Positions 44,124-60,591 of a DNA stretch of 64,000 nucleotides are shown piece after piece. The translations under genes and the position numbers were made by a program. The stretch is from positions 32,001 to 96,000 of IMG/VR virus record IMGVR_UViG_3300021964_000018. One strand, 5' to 3'. Under the pieces are notes generated by a model. That model saw only the letters and a list, made by a program, of their open reading frames with translations, had not been told where the DNA came from and made no database searches. Positions within the stretch are counted from its first letter, which is position 1. Every line of letters starts with the position of its first letter. This DNA is from a virus.

Positions 44124-44339
44124 ATGAAATTAAATGATGAAGTAATCGCACACATTGCAAAACAATTACAACTGGCAATTTTGACTGGAACTGACATTGT
44201 TGATAACCTTCGAATGATTCGTTTAACTGCAGAAAATAATGAACTTTATTTGGATGCTGAATATTCAGAAATCGCTGAAGAAAACGAAAAAAGAATGCTT
44301 CAAGAAGCAGAAAAACTTGCATCACAGTTGGAAAATTAA
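44124..44339 (+). CDS. Hypothetical protein
   Basis: AGGAG RBS, 71 aa. Confidence 0.65.
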   Translation: MKLNDEVIAHIAKQLQLAILTGTDIVDNLRMIRLTAENNELYLDAEYSEIAEENEKRMLQEAEKLASQLEN

Positions 44340-44340
44340 T

Positions 44341-44724
44341 ATGAGTAATTGCAAACTTAAAGAAATGTTCGATTTGAGAGAGTCCTTTATTAAAAGGATG
44401 CAAAAAGAAAGACCGGGTTCATATCCAATACCTGTACCTTTAGAAAATCTTTCAGATAAAAAATCCCAGCAAGTTTGCAGAGATCTAGCTTTACGAGGTG
44501 TTGAAGAAATGTTTGAAGCACTTCAACACCTCAAAAACTGGAAACCTCACAAACTAACAGAAGATAAAGAATTCAACAAGGAAGAATTCTTAGAAGAAAT
44601 TGTGGATGCGTTCAATTATTTCATGGCTTTGTTAATTGTTGTAGATGTTGATGAAGAAAAACTATTTGAAGCATACCTTAAAAAAGATCAAAAAATTAGA
44701 AAAAGATTAGATGAAGGATACTAA
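44341..44724 (+). CDS. All-alpha NTP pyrophosphatase (dimeric dUTPase/dCTPase, MazG superfamily)
   Basis: VEEMFEALQHLKNWKPHK...FLEEIVDAFNYF...LFEAYLKKD. Confidence 0.8.
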   Translation: MSNCKLKEMFDLRESFIKRMQKERPGSYPIPVPLENLSDKKSQQVCRDLALRGVEEMFEALQHLKNWKPHKLTEDKEFNKEEFLEEIVDAFNYFMALLIVVDVDEEKLFEAYLKKDQKIRKRLDEGY

Positions 44725-45614
44725 TGAAACTTGAAACCCTATTCCAAATGCAAAAAGACTTTCAAGATAAACACGTTGGTTTAAAAGGTGATATTGAAGA
44801 AAGAACACAAAAGTTGGCATTATGCGCGCATTCTGAATTAAGCTCCATGATGGAAGCTGTTAATTATAAAATGCATCACAAGTATAGAGACATTCAGATG
44901 AATGCTGCCTCAGACAAAGTAATGTATGAAGCTGTTGATGTTGTGCGCTACATGATTGCTATCATGAATAACTGGCAGATAACACCAGAACAATTTGCAT
45001 TAGCTTATGATAAGAAAGACACTTATCTTCGAATGACTGCAGAAATTAATGAAAAGAAATGGGAGCAACAACCTGTTGTTATTGTTGACTTAGATGATGT
45101 GGTAGTAGATTTTAGGGTTTGTTTTGCCAATTGGCTTGAAGATAATTATGGTCTTAAAATAGACGTGGAATCTGAAGAATATTATTTTATTTCAGCATTG
45201 TCATCTATTGATGTTAATCCAGAAGCTGTATTTGAAAAATTTATGAACCAAGGTGGGTTTTCTCGACCAGACATTAATTCTGGTGTGTATCGCTATCTTT
45301 GGGATTTAAAAAATCAAGGTTTCTGGATTCAATATTTAACAGCAAGGCCTGGCGATAACCTTCGATGCGTTTATGATACGTATGATTGGATTGCAAAACA
45401 TAGCTTACCTTACGACGGTATTGATTTTTCAACAGAAAAATTTAGATGGTGTGCAAGATCTCGTTACTATAAACATATTAAATTTGCAATTGATGATTCA
45501 CCAAAGCATGCCTTAGAATATGCAAAGCATGGAATAGAATGTCATGTTCCTGTTAAATCATATAATAAACAAACAATCGGAATAAATAATATTAAACGGT
45601 ATAAAATATTTTAA
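44724..45614 (+). CDS. Fusion of a degenerate all-alpha NTP pyrophosphatase and a HAD 5'(3')-deoxyribonucleotidase
   Basis: N-half LFQMQ...HSEL....NYKMH...YEAVDVVRY; C-half DLDDVVVDF, LTAR, IDDSP. Confidence 0.75.
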   Translation: MKLETLFQMQKDFQDKHVGLKGDIEERTQKLALCAHSELSSMMEAVNYKMHHKYRDIQMNAASDKVMYEAVDVVRYMIAIMNNWQITPEQFALAYDKKDTYLRMTAEINEKKWEQQPVVIVDLDDVVVDFRVCFANWLEDNYGLKIDVESEEYYFISALSSIDVNPEAVFEKFMNQGGFSRPDINSGVYRYLWDLKNQGFWIQYLTARPGDNLRCVYDTYDWIAKHSLPYDGIDFSTEKFRWCARSRYYKHIKFAIDDSPKHALEYAKHGIECHVPVKSYNKQTIGINNIKRYKIF

Positions 45615-45626
45615 ACGGAGAGATAT

Positions 45627-45851
45627 ATGCTAATAATATTATTATCAACACTTTTGCTAGCTGAAGAACCTAAAGTTGTTTATAAAAAAAGGACAGAAAT
45701 TGATTTTGAAGCAGTTGACGTTGAAGGTACACTTAAAAAACCAAATCAAGCATTAATAATGGAAAACAATAGAGCAATTTTTAATCCTCTTGTTCAAATT
45801 AGAAACTCATGGCATGTTGAAATGATTGGCTCTGTTGAAGACATACAATAA
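45627..45851 (+). CDS. Secreted small protein resembling adventurous gliding motility protein CglF/GltF
   Basis: Signal peptide plus VVYKKRTEIDFEAVDVEGTLKKP...FNPLVQIRNSW..EM..SVEDI, matching the recalled CglF pattern KKTxIDFxDxxVEGELxKP...FxxLIxxRxxFxxELxxS. Confidence 0.7.
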   Translation: MLIILLSTLLLAEEPKVVYKKRTEIDFEAVDVEGTLKKPNQALIMENNRAIFNPLVQIRNSWHVEMIGSVEDIQ

Positions 45852-45874
45852 GAATAAATAAAAATTTAAATTTT

Positions 45875-45909
45875 AAGAGCTTGTACAAGCTCTTTTTTTT
45901 TGTTAAAAT
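45875..45909 (+). promoter_or_regulatory. 20-bp palindrome/terminator overlapping promoter TGTACA-N16-TAAAAT
   Basis: aagagcttgtacaagctctt (45875-45894) plus T run; TAAAAT 45904-45909. Confidence 0.7.
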
Positions 45910-45929
45910 AAAAATAAAAAGGAGAAAAT

Positions 45930-46916
45930 ATGCCACAAAATAAAAATCTTACACCTGTTAAACTCCCAATGGAACTTAAATTTGGTCAAGAACCAAAAAC
46001 AAAATTTTATAATAATCTTGAACATCTTAAAGTTGAATTAGTTGATGCGCCCACCAGGTCCCAAGCCCTTAATGTTGCATGGCAATATGTAAAAGCAACA
46101 TGGGCTGATCATCATGACGAAACAAATCCAGCAACTGCTTCATTACAAGAATTGTCTGCAAACCTTGAAGATGTTCTTAACTTTCGTGCATTGCCAACAC
46201 CAATGGAATGTTTAGGTTTTACATTTAAGCTGTCCGGACTTTCATTTCAAGAAGTTACTCACATTATTCGTCATCGAGCCGGCTCTTTTGCAGCACAATG
46301 TACAGGTGATCGCGATCTTCGTGATGATCCAGCCGTTATCCCTGAGGCCGTTGAAAACAGTCCAGAGTTTTTGCAACGATATCGAAAAATTGTTCGTGAT
46401 TCAAAGCAACTTTATGCTGACATGTGTGACTCAAAAGACGTCTCTATGATGGATGCTCGAATGATTCTTCCAAAATGTATGACATCTTTTTATCTAATGC
46501 GTCTTAACCTTAAAGACCTATTAGGTTTTATTGCACAGCGTCAAGATATGCAAATTCAACCTGCAGCAGATAATATTCTTGCAGCTTATATGGCACGTGA
46601 GCTTTTAAAAGTTTTACCAGAAGCGTCAACACGAATTAATTTTAGTAAACCTGACATGCATTACATTAAGACTTTCCGTGTACCAGATGGTAAAGGCGGT
46701 GAAACATCACGTGGTACAAATCTTTATTGGCCAGAACCTAAAAATGATAAGTTTGAATATCACCCAAATGATACAATTTATCAGTCACGTCGAGAAGATA
46801 TTAATGGAACAAATAACCCAGGAACAAAAACAAAATTTACACAACTTTGGGAACAAGCTTTACACGAAATAGCAGGTATACAAATAGCTTATGCACAATT
46901 TATGGGTAGAATTTGA
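45930..46916 (+). CDS. ThyX-like flavin-dependent thymidylate synthase homologue with altered active site
   Basis: TPME..FTF, IIRHRAGSFAAQCTGDR, DARMILP, NLKDLLGFIAQR...Q. Confidence 0.8.
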   Translation: MPQNKNLTPVKLPMELKFGQEPKTKFYNNLEHLKVELVDAPTRSQALNVAWQYVKATWADHHDETNPATASLQELSANLEDVLNFRALPTPMECLGFTFKLSGLSFQEVTHIIRHRAGSFAAQCTGDRDLRDDPAVIPEAVENSPEFLQRYRKIVRDSKQLYADMCDSKDVSMMDARMILPKCMTSFYLMRLNLKDLLGFIAQRQDMQIQPAADNILAAYMARELLKVLPEASTRINFSKPDMHYIKTFRVPDGKGGETSRGTNLYWPEPKNDKFEYHPNDTIYQSRREDINGTNNPGTKTKFTQLWEQALHEIAGIQIAYAQFMGRI

Positions 46917-46992
46917 TTTTTTATAGATAAATGCCTATTTAATTTCATAATTAATAATGTTTAAAAATATTTCATTAAGGAGAAATTTAATT

Positions 46993-47904
46993 ATGAAATT
47001 AAATAGGCATAGTTTAAGAATGTTAATAGAAAGTGTACTTCAAGAAGAAGTAGATGTTTCAAAATTCAAAAAAGGTGAATCCACAATAGTAGCGACAAAA
47101 GGTGCAGCTGCTGATAATAAAGCAGCTTTTGAAGTTTCTGATGTTGACACTATAAAGAAAAAACTAGGTATAAAAATATCAGGAAAATATTATGTATGGA
47201 AAGGAAGTCAAGCAGAAGCAGGTTATAAATTAGGTTCTGTTAGATATTCTTCAGGCGACCCTTATACTTACGAAGAATTATCAAATGGGTTTTACAGAGT
47301 AATGTCCGGACCAGATAGTAACGAAAAAAGAGATAGTGGAAAAAGAATAGGTACGTCTCCAATTGGTGCTAAGTTTAAACCTTCTTCTCCTCCAGACGTT
47401 GTTGTTGATCCTACAAATGTTCTTTCGAAGTTACGCGAAACTCCTGATGGAGATAAAAGATCAGGCAATTTCGATAAAGCTGTGAACATATTGGTGGCGT
47501 GTGCATCTGACAAAAAACAACTAGGTGACGTTATAAGTGAATTAGAAAGTCTAGCAAGTAGACCAATTAGAGGAAAAGATCTTCTCGCTCATCCTGCACA
47601 TTATGTTGCAAGATTGATGATGGGAGGTGTACAACAAGGAGGCGAAGTTTCAGGAACAGGCGCAGCTGCAAGTAATTCCAAAATTATCAATAAATATTTG
47701 TCATTACTGCAGAAGAAGCACGGTATGGGACGTGGTAACGTCGATATAAAATTTGACATGCGGATTAGCCAAGATCGCGCAGATAAATCTAATTTTGGAG
47801 ATTCAGTTAAGTCTGGTGCGAAAACTGGTGGAGGTCAAGCTGAAAAAATGGATGAATCTTTATCACGCGGATCTTTACTAAGAAGACGTTATAGAAGATA
47901 CTAG
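46993..47904 (+). CDS. Hypothetical protein, putative internal head protein
   Basis: AGGAGA RBS; N-term MKLNRHSLRMLIESVLQE; C-term MDESLSRGSLLRRRY. Confidence 0.6.
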   Translation: MKLNRHSLRMLIESVLQEEVDVSKFKKGESTIVATKGAAADNKAAFEVSDVDTIKKKLGIKISGKYYVWKGSQAEAGYKLGSVRYSSGDPYTYEELSNGFYRVMSGPDSNEKRDSGKRIGTSPIGAKFKPSSPPDVVVDPTNVLSKLRETPDGDKRSGNFDKAVNILVACASDKKQLGDVISELESLASRPIRGKDLLAHPAHYVARLMMGGVQQGGEVSGTGAAASNSKIINKYLSLLQKKHGMGRGNVDIKFDMRISQDRADKSNFGDSVKSGAKTGGGQAEKMDESLSRGSLLRRRYRRY

Positions 47905-47925
47905 AATTAGCAAATTATTAATTTT

Positions 47926-47949
47926 AAAAGCGGCAATGCCGCTTTTTTT
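47926..47949 (+). terminator. Intrinsic terminator
   Basis: aaaagcggc-aat-gccgcttttttt. Confidence 0.8.
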
Positions 47950-47950
47950 A

Positions 47951-47978
47951 TGTAAAAAAAAAGCTAACTTAATAAAAT
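47951..47978 (+). promoter_or_regulatory. Promoter TGTAAA-N16-TAAAAT
   Basis: TGTAAA 47951-47956, TAAAAT 47973-47978. Confidence 0.65.
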
Positions 47979-47998
47979 AAAAATAAAAAGGAGCAAAT

Positions 47999-48442
47999 AT
48001 GAATAAATGTTATATTGCCAGCGGTTGGTTTTCACCTGAATGGCTAGAAGAATTAGAAACAATTAAATCTGTACTTGATAGTCTAAATTTAAAATACTTT
48101 TCACCAAAAGATGAAAATCTTTGCGAGCCGGATTCTGACGTTGGTTTTCAAGATCAAGTCTTTAACGGCAATATTAAAGGGATGGAAGAGTGTGATTGGA
48201 TGATCTGTAATACTCGTAATAAAGATATGGGTAGTATTTTTGAAGCAGGTTATTTTCATAAGTTAGGAAAACCAATTGTTTACTTTTGCGCCGGTCTTCC
48301 TCCTGGTGCGCAATTTAATCTTATGCTAGCTGCATCTGGTAAGACAGTTTGTACATCAATTAAACAACTCAAAGGCTATCTTATCGATTGCCAGGCAACA
48401 GGTGAAATTATTACTCGTCGTTATGAAGGAGATATTGAGTAA
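47999..48442 (+). CDS. Nucleoside 2-deoxyribosyltransferase / (d)NMP N-glycosidase (NDT-DNPH1-MilB family)
   Basis: YIASGWFS, YFSP, DMGSIFEAGY (catalytic Glu), KPIV, FNLML. Confidence 0.85.
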   Translation: MNKCYIASGWFSPEWLEELETIKSVLDSLNLKYFSPKDENLCEPDSDVGFQDQVFNGNIKGMEECDWMICNTRNKDMGSIFEAGYFHKLGKPIVYFCAGLPPGAQFNLMLAASGKTVCTSIKQLKGYLIDCQATGEIITRRYEGDIE

Positions 48443-49437
48443 TGAATATTTTTATTACTGGTGAAAAAGGTTTAATTGCACAAAATATTATTAAAGAAGC
48501 AAAAGAAAACTTTCCTGATGTAAATATTATTACAGGAGCTGTTGATTATCTTAATATGCATCAAGAAGGTGAACCTTGTGTTTATAAAAATTCAATTGAT
48601 CAATGGAAATTCTTTTTTGATTTAAATCAAATTGATGTAATTATTCACAATGCAGCTGTTGTTAATACAGAAGTTGTTGGCATGAATCTTGAGCGCGCAA
48701 CACGAACCAACGACGAAGGTACATATAAGATTTGCATGGCAGCACAAAAATGTGACATTCCTGTTTGTTATATGGGAACGACTGTTATCTATGATGCATT
48801 TAAATATCAAAACGAGAAAATAACAGAAGAATCATCACGTGGACCACATACACTTTACGGCTGTCAAAAGCTAGCAGCAGAATATATTGTTAAGTCTCAT
48901 GCACCGAAATGGATGATTATTCGACCTCTATTTGCATATGGCGGAGAAGGTGATATGAATTCACTAATTGCAAAGTCAATTTATGCATGTCTTAACGGAA
49001 AGCAAGTTGATATGCGCCTAGATCCAACAAAATACAAAGATTATATGCACGTTTCAGATTATGCTAATGCAGTCTTAACAGGAATTACACAGCACCTTTG
49101 GAATGACGAATGGAACATCGCGGCAGAAACACCTCATGTAACAGAAAACATTATCAAAATGATTGAAAAGATTTGTGGTTTAGACATGTCAAATACAATC
49201 AATTGGAAATCTACTTCAGACTATACAGGTAATCATAGGTTGGATTCTAGTAAGTTTAGAAATGCTACCGGCTGGTCTCCTAAAGTTATACTAACCAAAG
49301 GAATTAGAATGTCTTATGAAACAATTCTGAATTCGGAAGGTTATAATCCATTAACACACCTTGAAGAAGCAGAAAAAAGAAACATCGACGTGGGAGAATA
49401 CTTTAATGAAGCAAGAATTGCAAGAAAGTCTATTTAA
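48442..49437 (+). CDS. NAD-dependent NDP-sugar epimerase/dehydratase (extended SDR)
   Basis: ITGEKGLIA, IHNAA, YGCQK (YxxxK), IIRP..AYG, DYMHVSD. Confidence 0.85.
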   Translation: MNIFITGEKGLIAQNIIKEAKENFPDVNIITGAVDYLNMHQEGEPCVYKNSIDQWKFFFDLNQIDVIIHNAAVVNTEVVGMNLERATRTNDEGTYKICMAAQKCDIPVCYMGTTVIYDAFKYQNEKITEESSRGPHTLYGCQKLAAEYIVKSHAPKWMIIRPLFAYGGEGDMNSLIAKSIYACLNGKQVDMRLDPTKYKDYMHVSDYANAVLTGITQHLWNDEWNIAAETPHVTENIIKMIEKICGLDMSNTINWKSTSDYTGNHRLDSSKFRNATGWSPKVILTKGIRMSYETILNSEGYNPLTHLEEAEKRNIDVGEYFNEARIARKSI

Positions 49438-49708
49438 TGCATACCCAAAGATTTTTGCGCGAAGACATATGCCAAAAGAATACACAGCGATGTGTTATGG
49501 AATTCAATGTCCAGATAGTTGGTATGATTTAATTGATACACTTTGCGGAAGAATTCAATCTTATTCTGACCAAAAAGGAATAATATGTGAAGCAAATCAA
49601 GTAAAATCAAAATTTGGTGGTTTAAGATTTTACGTAACTTATTCAGATCCCTATATTAAAGGATTGTTATCAATGGCAGAAATGATGTCGCTTAAAATAA
49701 AGGAGTAA
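49406..49708 (+). CDS. Conserved hypothetical phage protein
   Basis: W.DLI..LC...QVKSKFGGLRFY motif. Confidence 0.65.
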   Translation: MKQELQESLFNAYPKIFARRHMPKEYTAMCYGIQCPDSWYDLIDTLCGRIQSYSDQKGIICEANQVKSKFGGLRFYVTYSDPYIKGLLSMAEMMSLKIKE

Positions 49709-49710
49709 TA

Positions 49711-50457
49711 ATGTCACATTCACAATATAAATGTCAAGTTCAAGGAAAAGAAAGTTATATTGATAATCAATTTGTTATCTTTTCTCAATCTTACTTAATG
49801 AATCAGGTTCATATCTACAATAAAGAAAAAGGTCACACAACAAAAAATCGAGTTAAATTATTAGAATTGGGATGTTATAACGGTCGTGTTATGCACTTTA
49901 TGACGCAACAAATGTTATTTGTTGATTATACAGGTGTTGATGTTACTCATCAGTATCTTGCACATTCACCGGTCGCAAATCGAAAAGACGTAACCTTGCT
50001 TTGCGAAGACGTAACAAAAGGATTGTCATTGGCTGACGGTTCTCAAGATATGATTATCAGCTCAGAAGTGTTAGAGCATATCAATCCAGAAGATTTACCA
50101 GGCGTAATGAGAACACTTTATAACAAGCTTAAAGTAGGTGGGCGATGTTGTGTTGCGTTTCCGATGAATACACGTGACACAATGTTTCACAATCTTGAAA
50201 AAGAACAAGGTTTAGGTCACGTTAATTTTCCTGTCTATGAAGACTTTATTGAACTTTGTGAAAACATCGGATTTACCTTACATCATTATGATAGTGGGTT
50301 TTCGCTTAAATCAAGTTTTAGAACACCTCGTTATGGAAAAGATCCGCTATATGACAAGTTAAGAGATCGACTAGGTTCACCTGCTGCTCGAGCTGTTTGG
50401 ATGACAATAACTGATGATCATACTGGTGGAGGATATTTTACTTTTGATAAGTTGTAA
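49711..50457 (+). CDS. Class I SAM-dependent methyltransferase
   Basis: LLELGCYNG, YTGVDV, DMIISSEVLEHI, LKVGG. Confidence 0.85.
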   Translation: MSHSQYKCQVQGKESYIDNQFVIFSQSYLMNQVHIYNKEKGHTTKNRVKLLELGCYNGRVMHFMTQQMLFVDYTGVDVTHQYLAHSPVANRKDVTLLCEDVTKGLSLADGSQDMIISSEVLEHINPEDLPGVMRTLYNKLKVGGRCCVAFPMNTRDTMFHNLEKEQGLGHVNFPVYEDFIELCENIGFTLHHYDSGFSLKSSFRTPRYGKDPLYDKLRDRLGSPAARAVWMTITDDHTGGGYFTFDKL

Positions 50458-50508
50458 TTATTGCGAATAATTAATTATTGATTTATACTTTGTTAAAAAG
50501 GTGTGCAA

Positions 50509-52314: not shown

Positions 52315-52384
52315 TAATAATTAATAGTTATTACTAGCATTATGAGGTACAAATATTATAAATTAAACTAAGTTTTGCACCACG

Positions 52385-52422
52385 TGTAAATGTGCCACAT
52401 ACAAATTATAATTTGTATGTGG
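52385..52422 (+). promoter_or_regulatory. Promoter TGTAAA-N16-TATAAT with a perfect 28-bp palindrome over the -10
   Basis: TGTAAA 52385-52390; ccacatacaaattataatttgtatgtgg 52395-52422. Confidence 0.75.
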
Positions 52423-52447
52423 TTTTATTGTATTTAAAAGGAGTATT

Positions 52448-55400: not shown

Positions 55401-55960
55401 CATTACATTCACTAAAAGAAATGTGGGATGGAACGATTAAAAATCACCGTCAGCTGCATGAAATTATTATTGAAAATTATGTTCTGCTTAAAAAATCTCG
55501 ATGGGGTATGACAATTCGTCAGGCCCAAAAGAAAGATGCACCTGACTTTTTCTTGCAATTAATTGATGATACAGCTGAAATTGAAGATTGGAATCGATTA
55601 GAAAAACTACAAATGTATCAGGATTTATGTTCAGCGACTCGTGATGACCTCGCATTTCCTGAAGAAATGTTAACTAAAATTCAATCATCAGGCGTCAAAT
55701 CAGTTTTACAGTTCGCGCCTGGTGAAAAATCAATTGGTTGGTTTTGTGTGATTGAATGGATTAAAAAGACAACCAAGAATAAGAAAACCTTTTATCGAAT
55801 TAAGATAACTGATAATCAAAATAATACAGGTTGGCTTCGAATGTGGGGTAATAAGCCTAGTTCAATGACTCCTTATTCTATCTGGCTGACTAAGGCGCAT
55901 AATGATCCGAATTGGGGTGCTTCAACAAGTGTCGCAAAAGTAAGACCTTTAATTGTGTAA
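52448..55960 (+). CDS. dnaE: DNA polymerase III alpha subunit (family C)
   Basis: PHP LHCHSGFS..DG, ALTDHG, GCEFY, DSHY; GPARGSGGGSLV.Y.LGIT.VDP, PDIDSD, HAGGV, KFDFLGL, YRPGP, YGFNKSHA. Confidence 0.95.
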   Translation: MPVLIPPPTKFVGLHCHSGFSVYDGLGYPADHIDFVLENGMDAWALTDHGNGSGLAHAHKHAEKLRKKGVKYRQIYGCEFYFVPSLKQWRGDYEQAKIDRAAAKQKAIKEEEEGGHIIENEEETKTFKLSNDEWKRRYHLVITAQNAEGLSNLFTLIKRAYTDGFYRYPRIDFDLLKKYGRGLNVSTACLGGIYSNRIMRGNALKLSDEQIQSELLQLSDRFVDAVGEDNFYLEVQFNRLKQQHLVNHHLLRHADQTGIPLLATADSHYYSPDKWEARELYKKLGWMGADPSPLPEFEDLKCELYPKNAEQMWGEFTRHYDEYEDTYKGYEEKIKGAIERSYEIAWDKCEDCWIDTSVKLPDFNSPESSAFQKLGKKVKEALVKEELHKKPEYVARAKAELEDIKYLGFENYFLVMNEVFHKAADHTLFGPARGSGGGSLVNYLLGITQVDPLKYDLLWERFLGRHRTSWPDIDSDAGDRDALINAARELYGNEAVIPVSNFNTLKLKSLVKDIAKFYGIDFGEVNKMTGPLQSEVMAQARDENTEKSVFVLKHADCMKYSKGYREFMEKYPKVKDHLEALFMQNRSVGRHAGGVIIGPPEDLERSMPIIGVRGELQTPWTEGMNFRNLEDNGFIKFDFLGLTLLKDVENCISRIITRETGKKPTFLEIRDWFDKHLNCRYVTQDDEKVWKHVYHQRRKTGVFQFTAEGARKFCENAKPTTIEELAALTAIYRPGPLRANVHKKYVKDKANAENIEYAHPIIKEILGTTFGHVTFQEQFMLLAQKLGGFSPAESDKLRKTLVKKSLDTMGKKGDEREAARIKFVTGAKEINGVPEHVSQELWERIEFFSVYGFNKSHAIAYALDSYYAAWLHTYYETDWLGTILESENNNPDALAKAISEIKAMGFEVSTPDINESGIAWTWSENKKAFIPPLTSIKGLGKNAVKEIFENRPYESIDQMLFNEEGKWYHSKLNKTGFAALCKVEALHSLKEMWDGTIKNHRQLHEIIIENYVLLKKSRWGMTIRQAQKKDAPDFFLQLIDDTAEIEDWNRLEKLQMYQDLCSATRDDLAFPEEMLTKIQSSGVKSVLQFAPGEKSIGWFCVIEWIKKTTKNKKTFYRIKITDNQNNTGWLRMWGNKPSSMTPYSIWLTKAHNDPNWGASTSVAKVRPLIV

Positions 55961-55983
55961 ATTAAAAATATTTTAATTAAAAT
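55956..55983 (+). promoter_or_regulatory. Promoter TGTAAA-N16-TAAAAT
   Basis: TGTAAA 55956-55961, TAAAAT 55978-55983. Confidence 0.65.
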
Positions 55984-56003
55984 AATACTAAAAGGAGTTT
56001 TTA

Positions 56004-56900
56004 ATGGTTAAGTTTCCTATTGAAAAAATTATAATTGAAGGTCCAGATTTAGCTGGAAAAACAACATTGCTTAATAAAATGCATGATATATCAAAATTCC
56101 GCTGGAATATACAAGATCGTTCTGCATTATCAATGCTAATTTATGCAAAAATGTATAATCGAGATACGTTTCACTTAGTTGAAAATCTTAAAAAAGAACT
56201 GTTTAATCTTAACAATCAAATTGTTTTATTACTACCACCTTTTGAAGTTTTATCAAAAAGGTTTCAAAAACGTGGTGATCCAATACAAAATTTAATATCA
56301 TTGCGAAAGCTTCATAAGCTATTTTCAGAATTTGAAGAAGAATATGGATCTTTACCAAACGTAACAGTTGTTAAAAAAGAAATTAGTGATCATGATTATA
56401 AATCAATTGTAGGTCGTTATCTTGCAATGGAACAACATGCTACAATACATCAATTTCCTGCTATGTGTGTTAATGCTGCTAATACACAGGATAACAAAGA
56501 AGTCGTTGGCCTTAGGTTTACTTATTTTGATGATGGCCAATTCACAGATGTTATTCCAGAACTTATGGAGTATAAAGGGGAAAAAGAATATTATCTTAAA
56601 ATTAGAGAAAAGTTGCATTATAAAATGATGCAAAATCATACTGACAGCCAAGATGTTTCTTCTAGAAGAATAATTTATAGCGATGATAGTTGTATTTCTT
56701 TGGCACATTTTTTAATACGTGAACAAATGTTTGATGCTAAGTTTTTTCTGCGATCATCAAATGTAAAAGATACTTTGAAATATGATATTAATTTTATTCA
56801 TTTTCTAACTAGTCATGTATATCAATCTTATCATTGCAATCAGCCTGTGAAAATAGAACTGACGTTAAACTCGGCACATATTTGTGATAGAATAGATTAG
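56004..56900 (+). CDS. Fusion of a dNMP (thymidylate-type) kinase and a minimal thymidylate-synthase-fold domain
   Basis: N-term IIIEGPDLAGKTT, IQDRS..S..IY, R..KRGD; C-term SRRII, C230, LRSSNV, YD261I, SAH292I. Confidence 0.75.
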   Translation: MVKFPIEKIIIEGPDLAGKTTLLNKMHDISKFRWNIQDRSALSMLIYAKMYNRDTFHLVENLKKELFNLNNQIVLLLPPFEVLSKRFQKRGDPIQNLISLRKLHKLFSEFEEEYGSLPNVTVVKKEISDHDYKSIVGRYLAMEQHATIHQFPAMCVNAANTQDNKEVVGLRFTYFDDGQFTDVIPELMEYKGEKEYYLKIREKLHYKMMQNHTDSQDVSSRRIIYSDDSCISLAHFLIREQMFDAKFFLRSSNVKDTLKYDINFIHFLTSHVYQSYHCNQPVKIELTLNSAHICDRID

Positions 56901-56902
56901 TT

Positions 56903-57061
56903 ATGAAAAATGATAAGCTTTGGTTATTAATTGATGGCGTACTAAAAAAACTGCATCATGCAAAATTTTGGGCTACTTCTATTGATCCTCACAAAGAAGA
57001 TATAATAAAAGCAATAGAAGCTTTAGAATCTGCAAGAAAGAAAATTGAGGAAGAAAAATGA
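56903..57061 (+). CDS. Small hypothetical protein (52 aa), not in ORF track
   Basis: MKNDKLWLLIDG...KKIEEEK*; fills the gap, with an ATGA overlap with dUTPase. Confidence 0.55.
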   Translation: MKNDKLWLLIDGVLKKLHHAKFWATSIDPHKEDIIKAIEALESARKKIEEEK

Positions 57062-57468
57062 AAATTAATATTAAAAAACTGCATCCAAATGCAGTGATCC
57101 CTGCATATGCAAAACAAGGTGATGCAGGTATGGATTTAACAGCAATCGGAATAAAAGAAACCGGTTCTCACATCACATATCATACAGGTTTGGCAATAGA
57201 AATCCCAAGAGGTTATGTGGGTTTATTGTTTCCTAGAAGCTCAATCTATAAAACAGATCAGACACTAACAAATTCAGTAGGCGTTATTGATAGCGGGTAT
57301 CGAGGTGAAATTATGATGAAATTTACTCGAGGAATTAATCATTATTGTATTGGTGATAGAATTGGTCAAATTATGATTTTACCTTATCCGCAAATTGAAT
57401 TTGAAGAAGTTGATCAACTTTCAACTTCAGAAAGAGGGGCTAATGGCTATGGAAGCACAGGAGCCTAA
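57058..57468 (+). CDS. dut: Trimeric dUTPase
   Basis: DAGMDL, PRSS, GVIDSGYRGEI, DRIGQ, RGANGYGSTG. Confidence 0.95.
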   Translation: MKINIKKLHPNAVIPAYAKQGDAGMDLTAIGIKETGSHITYHTGLAIEIPRGYVGLLFPRSSIYKTDQTLTNSVGVIDSGYRGEIMMKFTRGINHYCIGDRIGQIMILPYPQIEFEEVDQLSTSERGANGYGSTGA

Positions 57469-57682
57469 TCTAAATTCAGAAGCATATGAATATATTATTT
57501 ATGAGAATAATAAACTAATAGTTTTTCCTTCACCTTCTGGTATGCACGCAGGAATGAAAAGACATTATTATTTTAAAAAAGTTTTTAATGAATATCATTT
57601 GACAATTGTAAATAGGAAATCTTGGGAAAAATTAAAAAATCAATATAAAGTAAAAGTTTTAAAAATTAAGGAGAAAGAATGA
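57443..57682 (+). CDS. Hypothetical protein
   Basis: Overlaps both neighbours in operon-like fashion; start uncertain. Confidence 0.5.
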   Translation: MAMEAQEPNLNSEAYEYIIYENNKLIVFPSPSGMHAGMKRHYYFKKVFNEYHLTIVNRKSWEKLKNQYKVKVLKIKEKE

Positions 57683-58710
57683 AAAAAGCACTCGTAACAG
57701 GTGGCTGCGGATTTATCGGTAGTAATCTTACAAAAGAATTAATAAAACAAGGTTGGCAAGTCGATATTGTTGATGACATGTCTAATGGTCATTTAGAGTT
57801 GTTAGGCGGTTTAAAATTTAAAACGCTTCCAAATGCATCTTTTGTTTATCATTTTATGAATCAGATGAAAGGAAAAACACAAAGGGCTAAGAATACTGTG
57901 CTTGTAATTCAAGATGATTTTGCTGCACCAGCGCTTCTTGATTATATTGAAACAAATGCTTACGATGTAATATTTCACCAAGCAGCAGTTCCGAGAGTAA
58001 GTTATTCAGTTGAGTTTCCTTATGAAACTACAATTAATAACATTGCAAAAACTGTATCACTTTTCGATGCTGCTAAAGGTCATGTTAAAAGAATTGTTAA
58101 TGCATCATCTTCATCAGTTTATGGCGGGGCTGATAAATTACCTACTAAGGAAAGTGAAAATCAAAAAAGCCCAAAGTCTCCTTATGCATGGCAAAAAAGT
58201 GCGATTGAAGATTATTCAAAAATCTGTGCCGATTTATATGATTTAGACATTGTAAATTTAAGATATTTTAATGTTTTCGGCCCAGGTCAATATGGTAATA
58301 GTCCTTATTCAACGGCGGTGTCTGCATGGTGTCATGCAATTAAAAATGGATTAGAATGTAGATCTGACGGTGATGGAGAGCAAACCCGCGATATGTGTTA
58401 TATAGACAATATTGTATCAGCTAATATTTTAGCAGCATATGCAACCGGAAAATTTAAAGGTTTGGCATATAATGTTGCATGTGGAGACAGGGTCTCAAAC
58501 AATGAAATTTTAAATTATCTTAAAAACCAGTTTGGAGATCGAGTTAAAGTAAAAAATGCTCCAGAAAGACCAGGTGATGTAAAACATACACAGGCAGATA
58601 TCAGTTGTGCAACACAAGATTTTGGTTATAAACCTCTTGTTCAGTTTTGGGAAGGTTTGGAAAGAACAATCGAGTGGTGGGAAATAAAACCTGACGAATC
58701 AAATAAATAG
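57679..58710 (+). CDS. NDP-sugar 4-epimerase (GalE/WbpP-like extended SDR)
   Basis: VTGGCGFIGS, FHQAA, ASSSSVYG, PKSPYAWQK, LRYFNVFGP, GDGEQTRD, RPGDVKH. Confidence 0.9.
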   Translation: MKKALVTGGCGFIGSNLTKELIKQGWQVDIVDDMSNGHLELLGGLKFKTLPNASFVYHFMNQMKGKTQRAKNTVLVIQDDFAAPALLDYIETNAYDVIFHQAAVPRVSYSVEFPYETTINNIAKTVSLFDAAKGHVKRIVNASSSSVYGGADKLPTKESENQKSPKSPYAWQKSAIEDYSKICADLYDLDIVNLRYFNVFGPGQYGNSPYSTAVSAWCHAIKNGLECRSDGDGEQTRDMCYIDNIVSANILAAYATGKFKGLAYNVACGDRVSNNEILNYLKNQFGDRVKVKNAPERPGDVKHTQADISCATQDFGYKPLVQFWEGLERTIEWWEIKPDESNK

Positions 58711-58736
58711 TAATAGACTTTATCCCGGAGGATTAA

Positions 58737-59579
58737 ATGAAACTTGAACCATCACTTGTTGATTGTGTAATTTATCACGCAAATTGTACAGATGGTTTCG
58801 GTGCTGCATACTCAGCATGGAAGCTTTTAGGAAATCGTGCTGAGTATCATGCATGTGTGCATGGCCAAAAGCCACCTGACGTCAAAGGAAAGAATGTTGT
58901 TATACTTGATTTCTCCTTTGACAATAAAACAACTAAAAAATTAATTGAAAAAGCAGAAAACCTTTTAATTATCGATCATCACAAATCTGCAATGGTTGAA
59001 TTACACGATATCAGCAATACACATTTTGACATGACAAAGTCAGGAGCAATGTTATCATGGGAATGGTTTCACCCAGGAAAAGAGCCACCTAAGTTTATTC
59101 AATATATCATGGATAGAGACTTATGGAAATGGGAATTGCCATACTCGAAAGAATTTTCAGCTGCGTTTGATATGGTACCTTATGAATTTGAAGAATTTGA
59201 AAAGTTTGAAGATGATTCAGTTTTTGATGATGCAGTTAAGCGAGGAAGTTTTATTCTTGCATATTCAAAAACTGTAATTAAAAAAGTTTGTGATAAAGCT
59301 GTGCCTAAAAAATTAGACAATAGTAATGTCATGGTCGTTAACAGTTCTCATTGGATGTCAGAAATTGGTGCAAGATTAGCTCCTGACTGTGATTATGCAC
59401 TTATTTGGTATTATGATCATGCAGTTCAAGAATGTCGGGTAAGCCTTCGCGCATTTCATGATAATGTCGATGTTTCAGAAGTAGCCAAAAAGTTTGGAGG
59501 CGGTGGCCACAAGAAGGCTGCTGGTTTTACGTTAAAAGGAAAAATGGTAATTGATGATATTTTTGACAAGGAAAAATAA
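58737..59579 (+). CDS. DHH/DHHA1 phosphoesterase (nanoRNase-like)
   Basis: YHANCTDG, ILDF, IIDHH, DRDLW, GGGGHKKAAGF. Confidence 0.88.
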   Translation: MKLEPSLVDCVIYHANCTDGFGAAYSAWKLLGNRAEYHACVHGQKPPDVKGKNVVILDFSFDNKTTKKLIEKAENLLIIDHHKSAMVELHDISNTHFDMTKSGAMLSWEWFHPGKEPPKFIQYIMDRDLWKWELPYSKEFSAAFDMVPYEFEEFEKFEDDSVFDDAVKRGSFILAYSKTVIKKVCDKAVPKKLDNSNVMVVNSSHWMSEIGARLAPDCDYALIWYYDHAVQECRVSLRAFHDNVDVSEVAKKFGGGGHKKAAGFTLKGKMVIDDIFDKEK

Positions 59580-60188
59580 ATGTTAACGGCAATGGGCGAC
59601 GTTATGCGAAAAGCACACGAAAAAGGATGGATTACAACAAGAGATGGTAATGTATCTGTTAAAATGACAGGAAAAGATATCCTATATATAACACCTTCTG
59701 GTTGGCGAAAGACAATATTGCATCCTGAACATATTATTAAAGTTAAATTTACCCCTGCAGGTTTAAACGTTCCAGAAGGAACAACACCTTCTGGGGAATT
59801 GCATATGCATTCAAAGCTTCAACGGTTTGCAAAATATACGAGATCGGTTGTTCACCTTCACCCCACAAATATTATTGCAGCAATGTATGCCGGCTGGAAT
59901 TTGCAATCGTTGGCAGCAGAATTTCCTGAGGTATCACGTTATACAAGGGTTGGACCAACTGTTCCAGTTCTTCCTGTCACGTCGAATATACTTGCTGAAG
60001 AAACATTTGAGGCTTTTACTGATTTTGAAGGTACCGGATCTAATAAACTTAAGTTTGATATTGTTGGTCAAAAAAATCATGGAGTTTGTGCAGTAGGCGC
60101 AAATCCATGGGATGCTTATGAACATATTGAAAGGTTAGAACACATTTGTGAAATAGCCTTAAAAAGTGGAAGAAGACCTAATGAATAG
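59580..60188 (+). CDS. Class II aldolase/adducin family (FucA/AraD/MtnB-like)
   Basis: DGNVS, ITPSG, PSGELHMH, VVHLHP, NHGV. Confidence 0.88.
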   Translation: MLTAMGDVMRKAHEKGWITTRDGNVSVKMTGKDILYITPSGWRKTILHPEHIIKVKFTPAGLNVPEGTTPSGELHMHSKLQRFAKYTRSVVHLHPTNIIAAMYAGWNLQSLAAEFPEVSRYTRVGPTVPVLPVTSNILAEETFEAFTDFEGTGSNKLKFDIVGQKNHGVCAVGANPWDAYEHIERLEHICEIALKSGRRPNE

Positions 60189-60591
60189 ACCAGAATGGGA
60201 TGATATATGGATGGGTTTTGCTCAAAGTATTGCTAAGAGATCTTGTGATTCAAAATATCAAGTTGGTGCCGTCGTTGTAAATTCAGAAAACACACAAGTT
60301 CTTTCAATAGGATATAATGGTGATCAAAAAGGTGGGTCAAATCAAAGGGACTCTACTGAAACCGGTCAATCAGGATTTATTCATGCAGAAATCAATGCAT
60401 TAATTAAGATGGACTATAATAACCCATGTAAGAAAAAAATGTATTTGACTCTTTCGCCTTGTGAAGTCTGTGCAAAAGCAATCGTCAATGCAGGAATAAC
60501 AGCAGTCGTTTATTCTAAAGAATATGAGCACGGAAAAAAAGGAATATCTATTTTAAATGATGCAGGAATAGTGGTAAGAAACATTAAATGA
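60181..60591 (+). CDS. dCMP deaminase
   Basis: RPEWD, VGAVVV, GYNG, HAEINAL, PCEVCAK. Confidence 0.92.
   Translation: MNRPEWDDIWMGFAQSIAKRSCDSKYQVGAVVVNSENTQVLSIGYNGDQKGGSNQRDSTETGQSGFIHAEINALIKMDYNNPCKKKMYLTLSPCEVCAKAIVNAGITAVVYSKEYEHGKKGISILNDAGIVVRNIK

What the first reader, a model, noticed from the sequence alone, without database searches (positions are those of the whole stretch)
44341..60591. Candidate undescribed pyrimidine (cytosine) hypermodification pathway flanking a phage DnaE
Seen: within 16 kb around DnaE lie two all-alpha NTP pyrophosphatases (one fused to a HAD nucleotidase), a rewired ThyX, an NDT/MilB-type N-glycosidase, two NDP-sugar SDRs, a SAM methyltransferase, a kinase/TS-fold fusion, dUTPase, a DHH phosphoesterase, a class II aldolase and dCMP deaminase. 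Four TGTAMA-N16-TAWAAT promoters head these blocks. Known: T4 makes hmC DNA with a TS-fold dCMP modifier (gp42), a dNMP kinase (gp1), an all-alpha dCTPase (gp56) and dCMP deaminase, and all four roles have candidates here. Inference: the phage makes a modified dCTP before replication, removes canonical dCTP, and may add a methylated sugar or polyol group from the SDRs and aldolase. I do not recognise this enzyme set as a described pathway. Caveat: no glycosyltransferase is visible in the window.
Basis: partly seen in the sequence, partly recalled or inferred. Interest (0 to 1): 0.92.

Follow-up and report, generated by a model that had tools for sequence, protein, structure and literature searches.

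The report
Phage gene set for altered cytosine
An uncultured marine jumbo phage carries, around its DNA polymerase gene, a conserved enzyme set that most likely makes a chemically altered cytosine nucleotide for its own DNA. Its core is an undescribed pairing of stripped-down relatives of the two unrelated kinds of thymidylate synthase.

Summary
The gene inventory is real, and all four promoter-like sites are confirmed. The window is part of a 141-kb fragment, about 54% complete, of an estuarine or marine jumbo phage.

The conserved core in more than 80 related contigs is Fpg/Nei, MazG-like NTPase, MazG::HAD nucleotidase, ThyX-like, NDT, SDR1, DnaE, kinase::mini-TS, SDR2, DHH and dCMP deaminase. 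The methyltransferase, aldolase, 603-aa and 315-aa genes are strain-specific inserts.

Three findings stand out:
- **Kinase fusion.** The 298-aa protein joins a YorR-like nucleotide kinase to a 150-residue thymidylate-synthase fold. Its best structural match is the flavin/O2-dependent dCMP 5-hydroxylase AfhB (9iqu). It carries the published 5-hydroxy-dCMP-synthase signature: Cys146, L143D, D169N and N177D equivalents.
- **ThyX-like gene.** It lacks the canonical dUMP-binding loop. All four larger relatives also carry a normal ThyX.
- **Pairing.** ThyX-like and stand-alone mini-TS genes lie together beside the replicative polymerase in several unrelated phage lineages, including cultured Geobacillus phage GR1.

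Best reading (about 0.6): the block makes a C5-modified dCTP before replication, probably 5-hydroxy-dC. The product and the ThyX-like role are unproven.

No glycosyltransferase lies in this fragment, although fuller relatives have them in a distant glycan island.

The scan found the kinase::mini-TS fusion before on other DNA. The link to the ThyX-like gene is the new part.

The parts
43306..44115 (+). Fpg/Nei-family DNA glycosylase. Conserved at the upstream edge of the block. Its role in the pathway is inferred only.
   Evidence: Pfam H2TH 7.9e-18, Fapy_DNA_glyco 3.9e-15. Present in 46 of 80 related loci. Collinear in G001.
44124..44339 (+). Conserved 71-aa ORF of unknown function.
   Evidence: tblastn hit in 66 of 80 related loci. 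No Pfam or PHROG hit.
44341..44724 (+). MazG-like all-alpha NTP pyrophosphatase. Candidate for clearing a canonical dNTP. Specificity unknown.
   Evidence: phrog_12184 8.3e-15, phrog_173 1.9e-10. Present in 71 of 80 loci. Start codon checked.
44724..45614 (+). Fusion of an all-alpha NTP pyrophosphatase with a HAD 5'-deoxynucleotidase (NT5C type).
   Evidence: Pfam NT5C 1.5e-5, dUTPase_2 1.1e-3. phrog_173 5e-8. Present in 66 of 80 loci.
45882..45909 (+). Promoter-like site TGTACA-N16-TAAAAT ahead of the ThyX-like gene.
   Evidence: 6 sites observed against 0.25 expected.
45930..46916 (+). ThyX-like flavoprotein paralogue. It has the ThyX fold, with the RHR, ARxxLP and R174-equivalent residues kept. 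The canonical dUMP loop (S88/R90/Y91) is missing or replaced, Cys124 is invariant, and there is a conserved extension of about 100 aa at the C-terminus.
   Evidence: Thy1 66 bits. TIGR02170 41.6 bits against a cutoff of 87.9. Alignments A1 and A7. Foldseek to ThyX structures 6e-10. A canonical ThyX is also present in the relatives.
46957..47904 (+). 315-aa protein of unknown function. A variable insert, not a core member.
   Evidence: No Pfam or PHROG hit. Found in only 4 of 80 loci.
47951..47978 (+). Promoter-like site ahead of NDT and SDR1.
47999..48442 (+). Nucleoside 2-deoxyribosyltransferase-family enzyme. It could act as a transferase or as an N-glycosidase.
   Evidence: PF05014 53 bits. 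PDB 6evs 5e-7 with the catalytic Glu aligned. Present in 77 of 80 loci. Also found in the module of GR1 and of L130/L131.
48442..49437 (+). SDR1, an extended short-chain dehydrogenase of the NDP-sugar type with a YxxxK motif. Conserved in the marine lineage only.
   Evidence: PF01370 9e-24. No NCBIfam equivalog reached. Present in 58 of 80 loci. Sequence read.
49711..50457 (+). SAM-dependent methyltransferase. A variable insert.
   Evidence: Methyltransf_23/11/25. Found in 0 of 80 loci.
50503..52314 (+). 603-aa orphan protein. A variable insert.
   Evidence: No family hit. No relative in IMG/VR. No usable Atlas hit.
52385..52412 (+). Promoter-like site ahead of dnaE.
52448..55960 (+). DnaE-type replicative DNA polymerase.
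   Evidence: tblastn to phage DnaE-like polymerases, 27-30% identity, down to 3e-112. 62% identical in G001.
55956..55983 (+). Promoter-like site ahead of the kinase fusion.
56004..56900 (+). Fusion protein. Residues 1 to about 148 form a YorR/Tmk-like nucleotide kinase. Residues about 146-298 form a compact thymidylate-synthase fold. Signature residues are C230 (equivalent to C146), D227 (L143), N253 (D169) and D261 (N177), with R221, R222, R250, S251 and H292 invariant.
   Evidence: AF2 model pLDDT 93.3. VIA: 3kb2 Z 13.8; 9iqu Z 12.1 over 150 aligned residues; MilA Z 11.6; ThyA Z 11.0. Foldseek: 9iqu 5.6e-6. Profile against PDB: T4 dCMP hydroxymethylase 0.0078 with the catalytic residues aligned. 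Alignments A2-A4.
57058..57468 (+). Trimeric dUTPase.
   Evidence: PF00692 6e-19. phrog_135 1e-49.
57679..58710 (+). SDR2, an NAD-dependent NDP-sugar epimerase-like enzyme with GxxGxxG, SSS and YAWQK motifs.
   Evidence: PF01370 9e-43. Best NCBIfam matches TviC and GalE, both below cutoff. Collinear in G001. Sequence read.
58737..59579 (+). DHH/DHHA1 phosphoesterase.
   Evidence: phrog_4771 2.8e-76. 70% identical in G001.
59580..60188 (+). Class II aldolase/epimerase-family protein. A variable insert in this lineage.
   Evidence: PF00596 1.8e-27. Found in 0 of 80 loci. A class II aldolase does sit in an NDP-sugar set beside a mini-TS in L133.
60166..60591 (+). dCMP deaminase.
   Evidence: PF00383 4e-21. 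phrog_174 1.9e-43. 61% identical in G001.

Best explanation
The conserved core of this block is a pathway that makes a C5-modified deoxycytidine nucleotide before replication, for the phage's own DNA.

Proposed steps:
1. The MazG-like pyrophosphatases turn a canonical dNTP (probably dCTP) into the monophosphate.
2. The compact TS-fold domain of the 298-aa fusion binds dCMP. Asp261 reads the cytosine and Cys230 attacks C6, so that C5 can be modified.
3. The product is most likely 5-hydroxy-dCMP, made with a reduced flavin and O2 as in AfhB and RB69 gp48.
4. The fused YorR-like kinase phosphorylates the product at once. Host NDP kinase and the phage DnaE do the rest.

I propose that the ThyX-like protein is the flavin-handling partner of the mini-TS. 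It keeps the flavin-side ThyX residues but has lost the ThyX nucleotide loop. The mini-TS keeps the nucleotide site but has lost about 40% of a normal TS. The two losses complement each other.

The dCMP deaminase, the dUTPase and the canonical ThyX of the lineage supply dTTP. The HAD nucleotidase and the NDT-family enzyme dispose of or recycle unwanted deoxynucleotides.

Shown: folds, signature residues, synteny and cross-lineage co-occurrence. Inferred: substrates, product, the partnership, and any later glycosylation using sugars from SDR1 and SDR2.
For: Kinase::TS fusion
- Confident model, pLDDT 93.3.
- The C-domain matches dCMP hydroxylase AfhB 9iqu (Foldseek 5.6e-6; VIA Z 12.1 over 150 residues).
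- The sequence profile's top PDB hit is T4 dCMP hydroxymethylase, with C148, R168-S169 and D179 aligned.
- The residues match the published 5hodCMP-synthase signature of N177D, L143 acidic and D169N (PMC13326640; alignment).
- Cys and Asp are near-invariant in 150 family representatives.
- DLP3, RB69 and RL38J1 place a YorR/Tmk-like kinase in the same modification cluster as the synthase, within two genes of it (Table 1). Here the two are fused.

ThyX-like gene
- It scores below the ThyX equivalog cutoff.
- It lacks the S88/R90/Y91 loop.
- It coexists with a canonical ThyX in 4 of 4 large relatives and in 22 loci. No ThyA is present.

Linkage
- ThyX-like lies next to or within 6 kb of a stand-alone mini-TS in GR1 (overlapping stop and start), L123, L124, L128, L130, L135 and L136. 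That is 7 of 11 contexts.
- The pair usually sits directly beside PolB or DnaE, with a small kinase, an HD or HAD nucleotidase, an NDT and an all-alpha NTPase.

Synteny and regulation
- The core is syntenic across 80 marine loci and in complete G001.
- A shared promoter motif heads ThyX-like, NDT, dnaE and the fusion.
Against: - There is no chemical evidence of a modified base.
- The mini-TS is only about 150 residues, against 217-290 for active homologues, and is not detected by PF00303. It could be a binding domain rather than a catalyst.
- Known 5hodCMP synthases work without a ThyX-like partner, so that role is conjecture.
- The D169-equivalent is Asn in only about half of the family, so the product may differ between members.
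- NTPase specificities are unknown.
- No glycosyltransferase lies in the block. Those of fuller relatives sit in a large glycan island that looks like polysaccharide synthesis.
- Synteny within one phage lineage may be inheritance rather than functional coupling.
Confidence: 0.6

Rival explanations
1. This is ordinary nucleotide supply, salvage and pool sanitation for an AT-rich genome. MazG, HAD nucleotidase, NDT and kinase rebalance deoxynucleotides, and dCMP deaminase, dUTPase, ThyX and Tmk make dTTP. The ThyX-like protein is a divergent second thymidylate synthase. The mini-TS is a catalytically dead nucleotide-binding or regulatory domain of the kinase. Fpg and SOD point to oxidative-damage housekeeping.
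For: - Every family here also occurs in plain dNTP metabolism.
- The genome is about 33% G+C.
- Relatives carry thymidine kinase, an RNR small subunit and a canonical ThyX in the same block.
- An Fpg/Nei glycosylase and an Fe/Mn SOD flank the block.
Against: - A second, loop-deleted ThyX next to a normal ThyX is hard to explain as redundancy.
- The mini-TS keeps the nucleophile Cys, both phosphate-binding Arg pairs and a cytosine-type Asp almost without exception in 150 representatives. That argues for catalysis on dCMP.
- The ThyX-like and mini-TS pair recurs beside the polymerase in unrelated lineages.
Confidence: 0.2
2. The module works through a free base or nucleoside, as in mildiomycin and blasticidin biosynthesis, where MilA is a TS-fold enzyme and MilB an NDT-fold enzyme. 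The TS-fold enzyme modifies a cytidine nucleotide. The NDT-family enzyme then releases the modified base or moves it onto deoxyribose supplied by the nucleotidase. The kinase acts as a deoxynucleoside kinase. The end product is either a DNA precursor made by base exchange or a small-molecule nucleoside.
For: - NDT and a dNMP nucleotidase are core members of the module in three lineages.
- The kinase domain also matches the deoxynucleoside-kinase family (dNK 3.4e-5; 2jaq Z 12.3).
- MilA is among the best structural matches (Z 11.6).
Against: - The tight placement beside the replicative polymerase, and the fusion to a Tmk/YorR-like kinase, fit a dNMP-to-dNDP step better.
- No CGA-synthase-like or transglycosylase gene was seen.
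- The sugar specificity of the mini-TS is unknown.
Confidence: 0.1
3. The target is uracil or thymine rather than cytosine. The product would be a 5-hydroxymethyl-dU-type precursor, as in the SPO1 and M6 pathways, with the NT5C-type nucleotidase removing dTMP.
For: - The ThyX scaffold normally acts on dUMP.
- NT5C-type nucleotidases prefer dUMP and dTMP (established knowledge).
- The dCMP deaminase and dUTPase feed dUMP.
Against: - The N177-equivalent is Asp, the cytosine-specific state, in nearly all family members.
- The lineage keeps a canonical ThyX and a thymidine kinase, which would work against replacing T.
Confidence: 0.07

Closest known systems
Flavin/O2-dependent 5-hydroxy-dCMP synthases of the TS superfamily (phage HY126 AfhB, PDB 9iqu/9iqc; RB69 gp48; DLP3 gp80; RL38J1 gp216) and their arabinosyl- or hexosyl-5hoC pathways (PMC13326640)
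   Same: - TS fold, with these proteins as the best structural match.
- Cys nucleophile, N177D, polar or acidic L143-equivalent, and D169N in this window's protein.
- A YorR/Tmk-like kinase associated with the synthase.
- A MazG-type dNTPase and a dCMP deaminase in the genome.
   Different: - The domain has about 150 residues, against 217-290.
- It is fused to the kinase.
- PF00303 does not detect it.
- It is accompanied by a ThyX-like flavoprotein, an NDT and a dNMP nucleotidase.
- There is no arabinose-5-P isomerase, kinase/pyrophosphorylase set or adjacent GT4-type DNA glycosyltransferase.
- Activity is untested.
Phage T4 hmC precursor pathway (gp56 dCTPase, gp42 dCMP hydroxymethylase, gp1 dNMP kinase, cd dCMP deaminase)
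   Same: Same logic and the same four roles. T4 gp42 is the top sequence-profile hit of the mini-TS, with its catalytic Cys and Asp179 aligned.
   Different: - The kinase is unrelated to gp1 (YorR/Tmk-like instead).
- The TS domain is truncated.
- The D169-equivalent is Asn.
- No alpha- or beta-glucosyltransferase is present.
Flavin-dependent thymidylate synthase ThyX (T. maritima TM0449, 1o26) and the UMP methylase PolB (4p5b)
   Same: ThyX fold (Foldseek 6e-10 to 1e-7). The RHR motif, ARxxLP and the Arg174-equivalent are retained.
   Different: - Below the TIGR02170 cutoff.
- The S88/R90/Y91 substrate loop is deleted or replaced, and His53 becomes Leu.
- Cys124 is invariant.
- There is a conserved C-terminal extension of about 100 aa.
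- It is always an extra copy beside a canonical TS.
MilA/MilB of mildiomycin biosynthesis (TS-fold CMP hydroxymethylase plus NDT-fold hmCMP N-glycosidase)
   Same: A TS-fold pyrimidine-nucleotide modifier co-occurs with an NDT-family enzyme. MilA matches at Z 11.6.
   Different: The context is phage replication rather than an antibiotic cluster. No downstream nucleoside-antibiotic genes are present.

Membership tests
ThyX / FDTS (PF02511, TIGR02170) | Thy1 fold and domain match | tested here: met
   PF02511 66.4 bits against a cutoff of 24.8. Foldseek probability 1.0 to ThyX structures.
ThyX / FDTS (PF02511, TIGR02170) | Equivalog-level score | tested here: not met
   TIGR02170 41.6 bits against a cutoff of 87.9. 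Canonical ThyX genes of the relatives score 129-177 bits on Thy1, against about 69 for this clade.
ThyX / FDTS (PF02511, TIGR02170) | ThyX motif RHRX7S with the dUMP-binding Ser88, Arg90 and Tyr91 | tested here: not met
   The sequence reads RHRAGSFAAQCTGDRD. HMMER places Cys at the Ser88 position, and the best PDB hit is the S88C mutant 3g4c. MAFFT against canonical ThyX shows the loop of about 20 aa deleted.
ThyX / FDTS (PF02511, TIGR02170) | Serves as the genome's thymidylate synthase | tested here: not met
   All four large relatives have a separate canonical ThyX. Twenty-two loci have one about 3.4 kb upstream.
TS superfamily dCMP C5-modifying enzymes (T4 gp42; 5hodCMP synthases such as AfhB, RB69 gp48) | Thymidylate-synthase fold | tested here: met
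   VIA Z 12.1 (9iqu), 11.6 (MilA) and 11.0 (ThyA), with model residues about 146-298 spanning chain residues 1-264. Foldseek 5.6e-6.
TS superfamily dCMP C5-modifying enzymes (T4 gp42; 5hodCMP synthases such as AfhB, RB69 gp48) | Catalytic Cys (E. coli C146) and phosphate-binding Arg/Ser residues | tested here: met
   C230, R221, R222, R250 and S251 are invariant in 38 sequences. They align to C148 and R168-S169 of T4 dCH.
TS superfamily dCMP C5-modifying enzymes (T4 gp42; 5hodCMP synthases such as AfhB, RB69 gp48) | Asp at the N177 position (cytosine specificity) | tested here: met
   D261 is invariant and near-invariant in 150 representatives.
TS superfamily dCMP C5-modifying enzymes (T4 gp42; 5hodCMP synthases such as AfhB, RB69 gp48) | Asn at the D169 position (said to be diagnostic of 5hodCMP synthases, PMC13326640) | tested here: met
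   N253 in the window's protein and in GR1's. Across the family it is Asn in about half and Asp or Glu in the rest.
TS superfamily dCMP C5-modifying enzymes (T4 gp42; 5hodCMP synthases such as AfhB, RB69 gp48) | Full-length domain with the cofactor-binding half; detectable by PF00303 | tested here: not met
   About 150 residues. No PF00303 hit at E<=0.01 in G000-G003, and only one sub-threshold hit (12.6 bits) in G004 at a different site.
TS superfamily dCMP C5-modifying enzymes (T4 gp42; 5hodCMP synthases such as AfhB, RB69 gp48) | Converts dCMP to a C5-substituted dCMP | not testable with these tools
   Needs an enzyme assay or LC-MS.
T4-type cytosine-replacement system | dCTP-specific pyrophosphatase | tested here: inconclusive
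   Two MazG/all-alpha NTPases are present. No PDB sequence match was found and their specificity is unknown.
T4-type cytosine-replacement system | DNA glycosyltransferase acting on the modified base | tested here: inconclusive
   None in the 141-kb record, which is 54% complete. G001, G002 and G004 have GT1/GT4 and GT2 genes, one of which hits GT4-conflict (PF20706). They lie inside a large glycan island.
Nucleoside 2-deoxyribosyltransferase family (PF05014) | Domain match above cutoff and the catalytic Glu | tested here: met
   53.2 bits against a cutoff of 28.8. The FEAG Glu aligns to the nucleophile of 6evs.

The most novel reading that the evidence does not exclude
The ThyX-like protein and the mini-TS together form a previously undescribed two-component, flavin-dependent pyrimidine-nucleotide modifying enzyme. 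It would be built from complementary reduced versions of the two unrelated thymidylate-synthase families. One keeps the flavin site and the other keeps the nucleotide site with its Cys nucleophile. The enzyme would make a non-canonical cytosine, possibly not 5hoC or hmC, in an abundant group of marine jumbo phages and in several other phage lineages, including cultured Geobacillus phage GR1.
Probability: 0.35. Interest if true: 0.9.

Novelty: new variant of a known kind. Interest (0 to 1): 0.8.

Why it matters
If the reading is right, an abundant and globally distributed group of estuarine and marine jumbo phages replaces or decorates cytosine by a route that differs from every characterised one. 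More than 1000 ThyX-like homologues were found in metagenomes.

This would matter in three ways:
- **Base-modification chemistry.** It would widen the enzymology of DNA base modification through a minimal TS fold, a repurposed ThyX and a fused kinase.
- **Metagenome annotation.** It would explain thousands of 'thymidylate synthase ThyX' and 'hypothetical protein' labels.
- **Marine virome work.** It would affect how such DNA behaves in restriction, CRISPR, library preparation and nanopore analysis.

Geobacillus phage GR1 is cultured and carries the same core pair, so the hypothesis can be tested directly.

Tried and rejected
- **DNA search.** A megablast of the 17-kb block against INPHARED found nothing. 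A tblastn of the kinase fusion against INPHARED also found nothing.
- **Single-sequence PDB searches.** ThyX-like, the kinase fusion, MazG1 and MazG::HAD gave no useful hit. Profiles were needed.
- **603-aa protein.** No IMG/VR relatives and no usable Atlas hit. I treat it as an orphan insert.
- **Complex prediction.** Complex prediction of ThyX-like with the mini-TS returned 'no answer', score 0.00, and the controls were not run. This counts neither for nor against binding.
- **Wider sampling of stand-alone mini-TS.** The search for related loci with the diverse alignment A9 failed for lack of a conserved stretch. With P0371 alone it only re-found the same contig.
- **Recurrent 317-334-aa protein (A6).** A profile search against the PDB gave nothing. 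The Atlas feature search suggests an FAD amine-oxidase-like fold, as a lead only. hhalign shows that the L121 and L122 members of this family are not ThyX-like.
- **Sequencing runs.** 24 estuary, marine and seawater DNA runs hold the stretch or part of it (five hold half of its sampled words or more), all kept as contigs. No RNA holder is listed. I could therefore look at neither raw-read signal at C nor expression, and I did not use read laying.
- **Methyltransferase and aldolase as pathway members.** I considered and rejected this for this lineage, because both are absent from 80 of 80 related loci.
- **Literature.** Searches for a ThyX paralogue in base modification found no description.

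Full report
**What the window is.** The window is bases 32001-96000 of a single 141,038-bp IMG/VR virus record. The record is linear and CheckV puts it at about 54% complete. The true genome is therefore a jumbo phage of roughly 260 kb. G+C is about 33% and nearly all genes are on the + strand. Near-identical DNA occurs in contigs from several estuary and marine metagenome studies. No cultured close relative is in INPHARED.

**Observation.** They are:
- a MazG-like NTPase (44341-44724);
- an all-alpha NTPase fused to a HAD NT5C nucleotidase (44724-45614);
- a Thy1-domain protein (45930-46916);
- an NDT (47999-48442);
- two extended SDRs (48442-49437 and 57679-58710);
- a SAM methyltransferase (49711-50457);
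- DnaE (52448-55960);
- a kinase fusion (56004-56900);
- a dUTPase, a DHH phosphoesterase, a class II aldolase and a dCMP deaminase.

The motif TGTAMA-N16-TAWAAT occurs six times in the window, all on the + strand, against 0.25 expected. Four of these sites sit 20-35 nt ahead of ThyX-like, NDT, dnaE and the kinase fusion. Just upstream lies an Fpg/Nei glycosylase (43306-44115). Just downstream lies an Fe/Mn SOD.

**Core and accessory genes.** The ThyX-like protein retrieved 80 related IMG/VR loci at 60-88% identity. More than 1000 homologues exist in metagenome protein sets. tblastn and ORF maps show a conserved order. It is collinear in the 100%-complete 284-kb relative G001:

Fpg, small ORF, MazG1, MazG::HAD, ThyX-like, NDT, SDR1, DnaE, kinase fusion, SDR2, (thymidine kinase), DHH, dCMP deaminase.

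The methyltransferase, the 603-aa protein and the aldolase occur in 0 of 80 loci, and the 315-aa protein in 4.

**The kinase fusion.** An AlphaFold2 model built from 38 homologues is confident, with pLDDT 93.3.
- Residues 7-148 match YorR and thymidylate or deoxynucleoside kinases (3kb2, Z 13.8).
- Residues about 146-298 form a compact thymidylate-synthase fold.
- The best matches of the C-domain are the phage HY126 dCMP hydroxylase AfhB (9iqu: Foldseek 5.6e-6; VIA Z 12.1 over 150 residues) and 9iqc, then MilA (Z 11.6), ThyA (Z 11.0) and T4 dCMP hydroxymethylase.
- A sequence profile of the C-domain independently ranks T4 dCMP hydroxymethylase first in the PDB (E 0.0078). C230 aligns to C148, R250-S251 to R168-S169, and D261 to D179.

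Lee et al. (PMC13326640) showed that TS homologues carrying N177D, an acidic L143 and the diagnostic D169N make 5-hydroxy-dCMP with a flavin and O2. They also list a YorR/Tmk-like 'nucleotide kinase' in the same gene cluster as the synthase in DLP3, RB69 and RL38J1, within two genes of it. The window's protein has D227, C230, N253 and D261 at exactly those positions, and the kinase is fused to it.

Over 150 representatives of the family, the Cys and the Asp are near-invariant. The D169-equivalent is Asn in about half and Asp or Glu in the rest. The domain is much shorter than any characterised homologue, and Pfam PF00303 does not detect it.

**The ThyX-like protein.** It has the ThyX fold but fails the ThyX equivalog cutoff, at 41.6 against 87.9 bits. 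RHR, ARxxLP and the Arg174-equivalent are kept. The segment that carries Ser88, Arg90 and Tyr91 in canonical ThyX is replaced or deleted (RHRAGSFAAQCTGDRD), and His53 becomes Leu. The clade has an invariant Cys and a conserved C-terminal extension of about 100 residues.

The decisive point is that all four larger relatives carry two Thy1 genes. One is a canonical ThyX at 129-174 bits and the other is this paralogue at about 69 bits. None carries a ThyA. In 22 loci the canonical ThyX lies only about 3.4 kb upstream. So this protein is not the phage's thymidylate synthase.

**Linking the two.** A profile of the mini-TS finds a 151-aa 'hypothetical protein' in cultured Geobacillus phage GR1. It lies immediately downstream of GR1's 46%-identical ThyX-like gene, with overlapping stop and start, and just before its DnaE.

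A library-wide profile search found 393 representatives. Many are kinase fusions of about 300 aa, and a divergent set are stand-alone proteins of 160-220 aa. The genomic contexts of the stand-alone forms show a recurring module:

| Context | Gene order |
|---|---|
| L123 | HD nucleotidase, ThyX-like, mini-TS |
| L130/L131 | kinase, NDT, HD nucleotidase, ThyX-like, mini-TS, UDG-PolB |
| L124/L125 | ThyA, ThyX-like, FAD-oxidoreductase-like protein, NT5C, kinase, mini-TS, PolB |
| L128 | mini-TS, HAD, all-alpha NTPase, DnaE, canonical ThyX, ThyX-like |
| L135, L136 | ThyX-like, (kinase), mini-TS, PolB |

ThyX-like lies within 6 kb of the mini-TS in 7 of 11 distinct contexts. Of the other four, three are short contigs and the fourth (L133/L134) pairs the mini-TS with sugar-nucleotide genes instead. 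In GR1, L124/L125, L130/L131, L135 and L136 the mini-TS lies next to the replicative polymerase gene or one small ORF from it. In this window the fused form does too, and in L128 three genes separate them.

The ThyX-like proteins fall into two subclades, and both lack the canonical nucleotide loop. These lineages use different polymerases and are otherwise unrelated. The association is therefore functional rather than inherited synteny.

**Mechanism (inference).** The mini-TS keeps the nucleotide half of a TS: the phosphate-binding arginines, the Cys nucleophile and the cytosine-reading Asp. It has lost much of the rest. The ThyX-like protein keeps the flavin-side residues of ThyX but has lost the nucleotide loop. 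I therefore propose that they act together. The mini-TS would activate dCMP at C5, and the ThyX-like protein would supply reduced flavin or a flavin-borne group.

The fused or adjacent kinase would make the diphosphate. The MazG-type NTPases would deplete the canonical triphosphate. The nucleotidase and the NDT-family enzyme would remove or recycle unwanted deoxynucleotides. The dCMP deaminase, dUTPase and canonical ThyX would make dTTP. The D169N signature favours 5-hydroxy-dC in this phage. Members with Asp or Glu at that position may make something else. None of this is shown biochemically. Known 5hodCMP synthases need no such partner, and complex prediction gave no verdict.

**Sugars.** SDR1 and SDR2 have intact YxxxK motifs and are conserved within the block in the marine lineage. 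They are distinct from the SDRs of the relatives' glycan island. They are absent from the module in other lineages.

No glycosyltransferase is in this 54%-complete record. G001, G002 and G004 carry 5-6 GT genes. In G001 these sit in a glycan island of about 30 kb. The island holds GMD, GT11, GT6, a carbamoyltransferase, an HldE-like gene and more, and one GT hits the 'GT4-conflict' family. This looks mainly like polysaccharide synthesis.

In one other lineage (L133) a mini-TS is followed by a HAD-kinase fusion, a class II aldolase and a sugar nucleotidyltransferase. That layout resembles the NDP-sugar arm of the arabinosyl-5hoC clusters. Glycosylation of the base is possible but open.

**Comparison and novelty.** The chemistry nearest to this is the recently described 5hoC pathway and the T4 hmC pathway. 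This system differs in four ways: the minimal TS domain, its fusion to the kinase, the obligatory extra ThyX-like gene, and the NDT and nucleotidase members. I rate it a new variant of a known kind.

Earlier agents of this scan reported the kinase::mini-TS fusion in other genomes and left the 'odd ThyX' set unexplained. I saw those notes only after reaching the same fold assignment.

Noticed in passing
window 43306-44115: An Fpg/Nei-family DNA glycosylase is conserved at the upstream edge of the nucleotide block, in 46 of 80 relatives. In other lineages a UDG sits beside the mini-TS or is fused to PolB (L130; the contig carrying P0353). Such enzymes excise oxidised pyrimidines, including 5-hydroxyuracil and 5-hydroxycytosine, so a link to a 5hoC-type base is conceivable but untested.
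   Followed up: partly
window 60889-61590: A phage-encoded Fe/Mn superoxide dismutase lies just downstream of the dCMP deaminase. It is conserved in G001 at 41% identity.
   Followed up: partly
L117/L118 (G001:118-152 kb): The complete relative G001 has a minus-strand glycan island of about 30 kb. It holds GDP-mannose 4,6-dehydratase, four SDRs, GT2, GT1/4, GT11 and GT6 transferases, a carbamoyltransferase, RpiB, a transaldolase, a class II aldolase, HldE-like genes, a radical SAM enzyme and a methyltransferase.
   Followed up: partly
L124:3990-4985, L121:334-1338, L122:420-1376, L127:5055-6008: A virus-specific family of 317-334 aa accompanies the mini-TS module in several non-marine lineages. 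It has an N-terminal GxGxxG motif, and Atlas features suggest an FAD amine-oxidase-like protein. No Pfam or PDB sequence match was found.
   Followed up: partly
L133:3666-11199: A stand-alone mini-TS is followed by a HAD+PRK kinase fusion, a class II aldolase, a sugar nucleotidyltransferase and a DNA C5-methyltransferase. This may be a mini-TS-based glycosyl-cytosine cluster that lacks a ThyX-like gene.
   Followed up: no
G000:109333-110115 (L084:14333-15115) and neighbours: Downstream of the window the record encodes a eukaryotic-type phosphomannomutase, a GroEL-like chaperonin (L084:9443-11062), a sigma-70 factor, a 5'-3' exonuclease, an HATPase_c protein and an amidohydrolase.
   Followed up: no
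window 44124-44339: A 71-aa ORF is conserved in 66 of 80 relatives directly ahead of MazG1. It has no family match.
   Followed up: no
L081 (Geobacillus phage GR1, OK896991.1:16752-41693): The GR1 block also holds an HD-domain protein, a 464-aa glycosyltransferase, a nitroreductase-type flavin reductase directly upstream of the ThyX-like gene, a NUDIX protein, a guanylate kinase, an amidoligase and a gamma-glutamylcyclotransferase. This looks like a richer modification locus in a cultured phage.
   Followed up: partly
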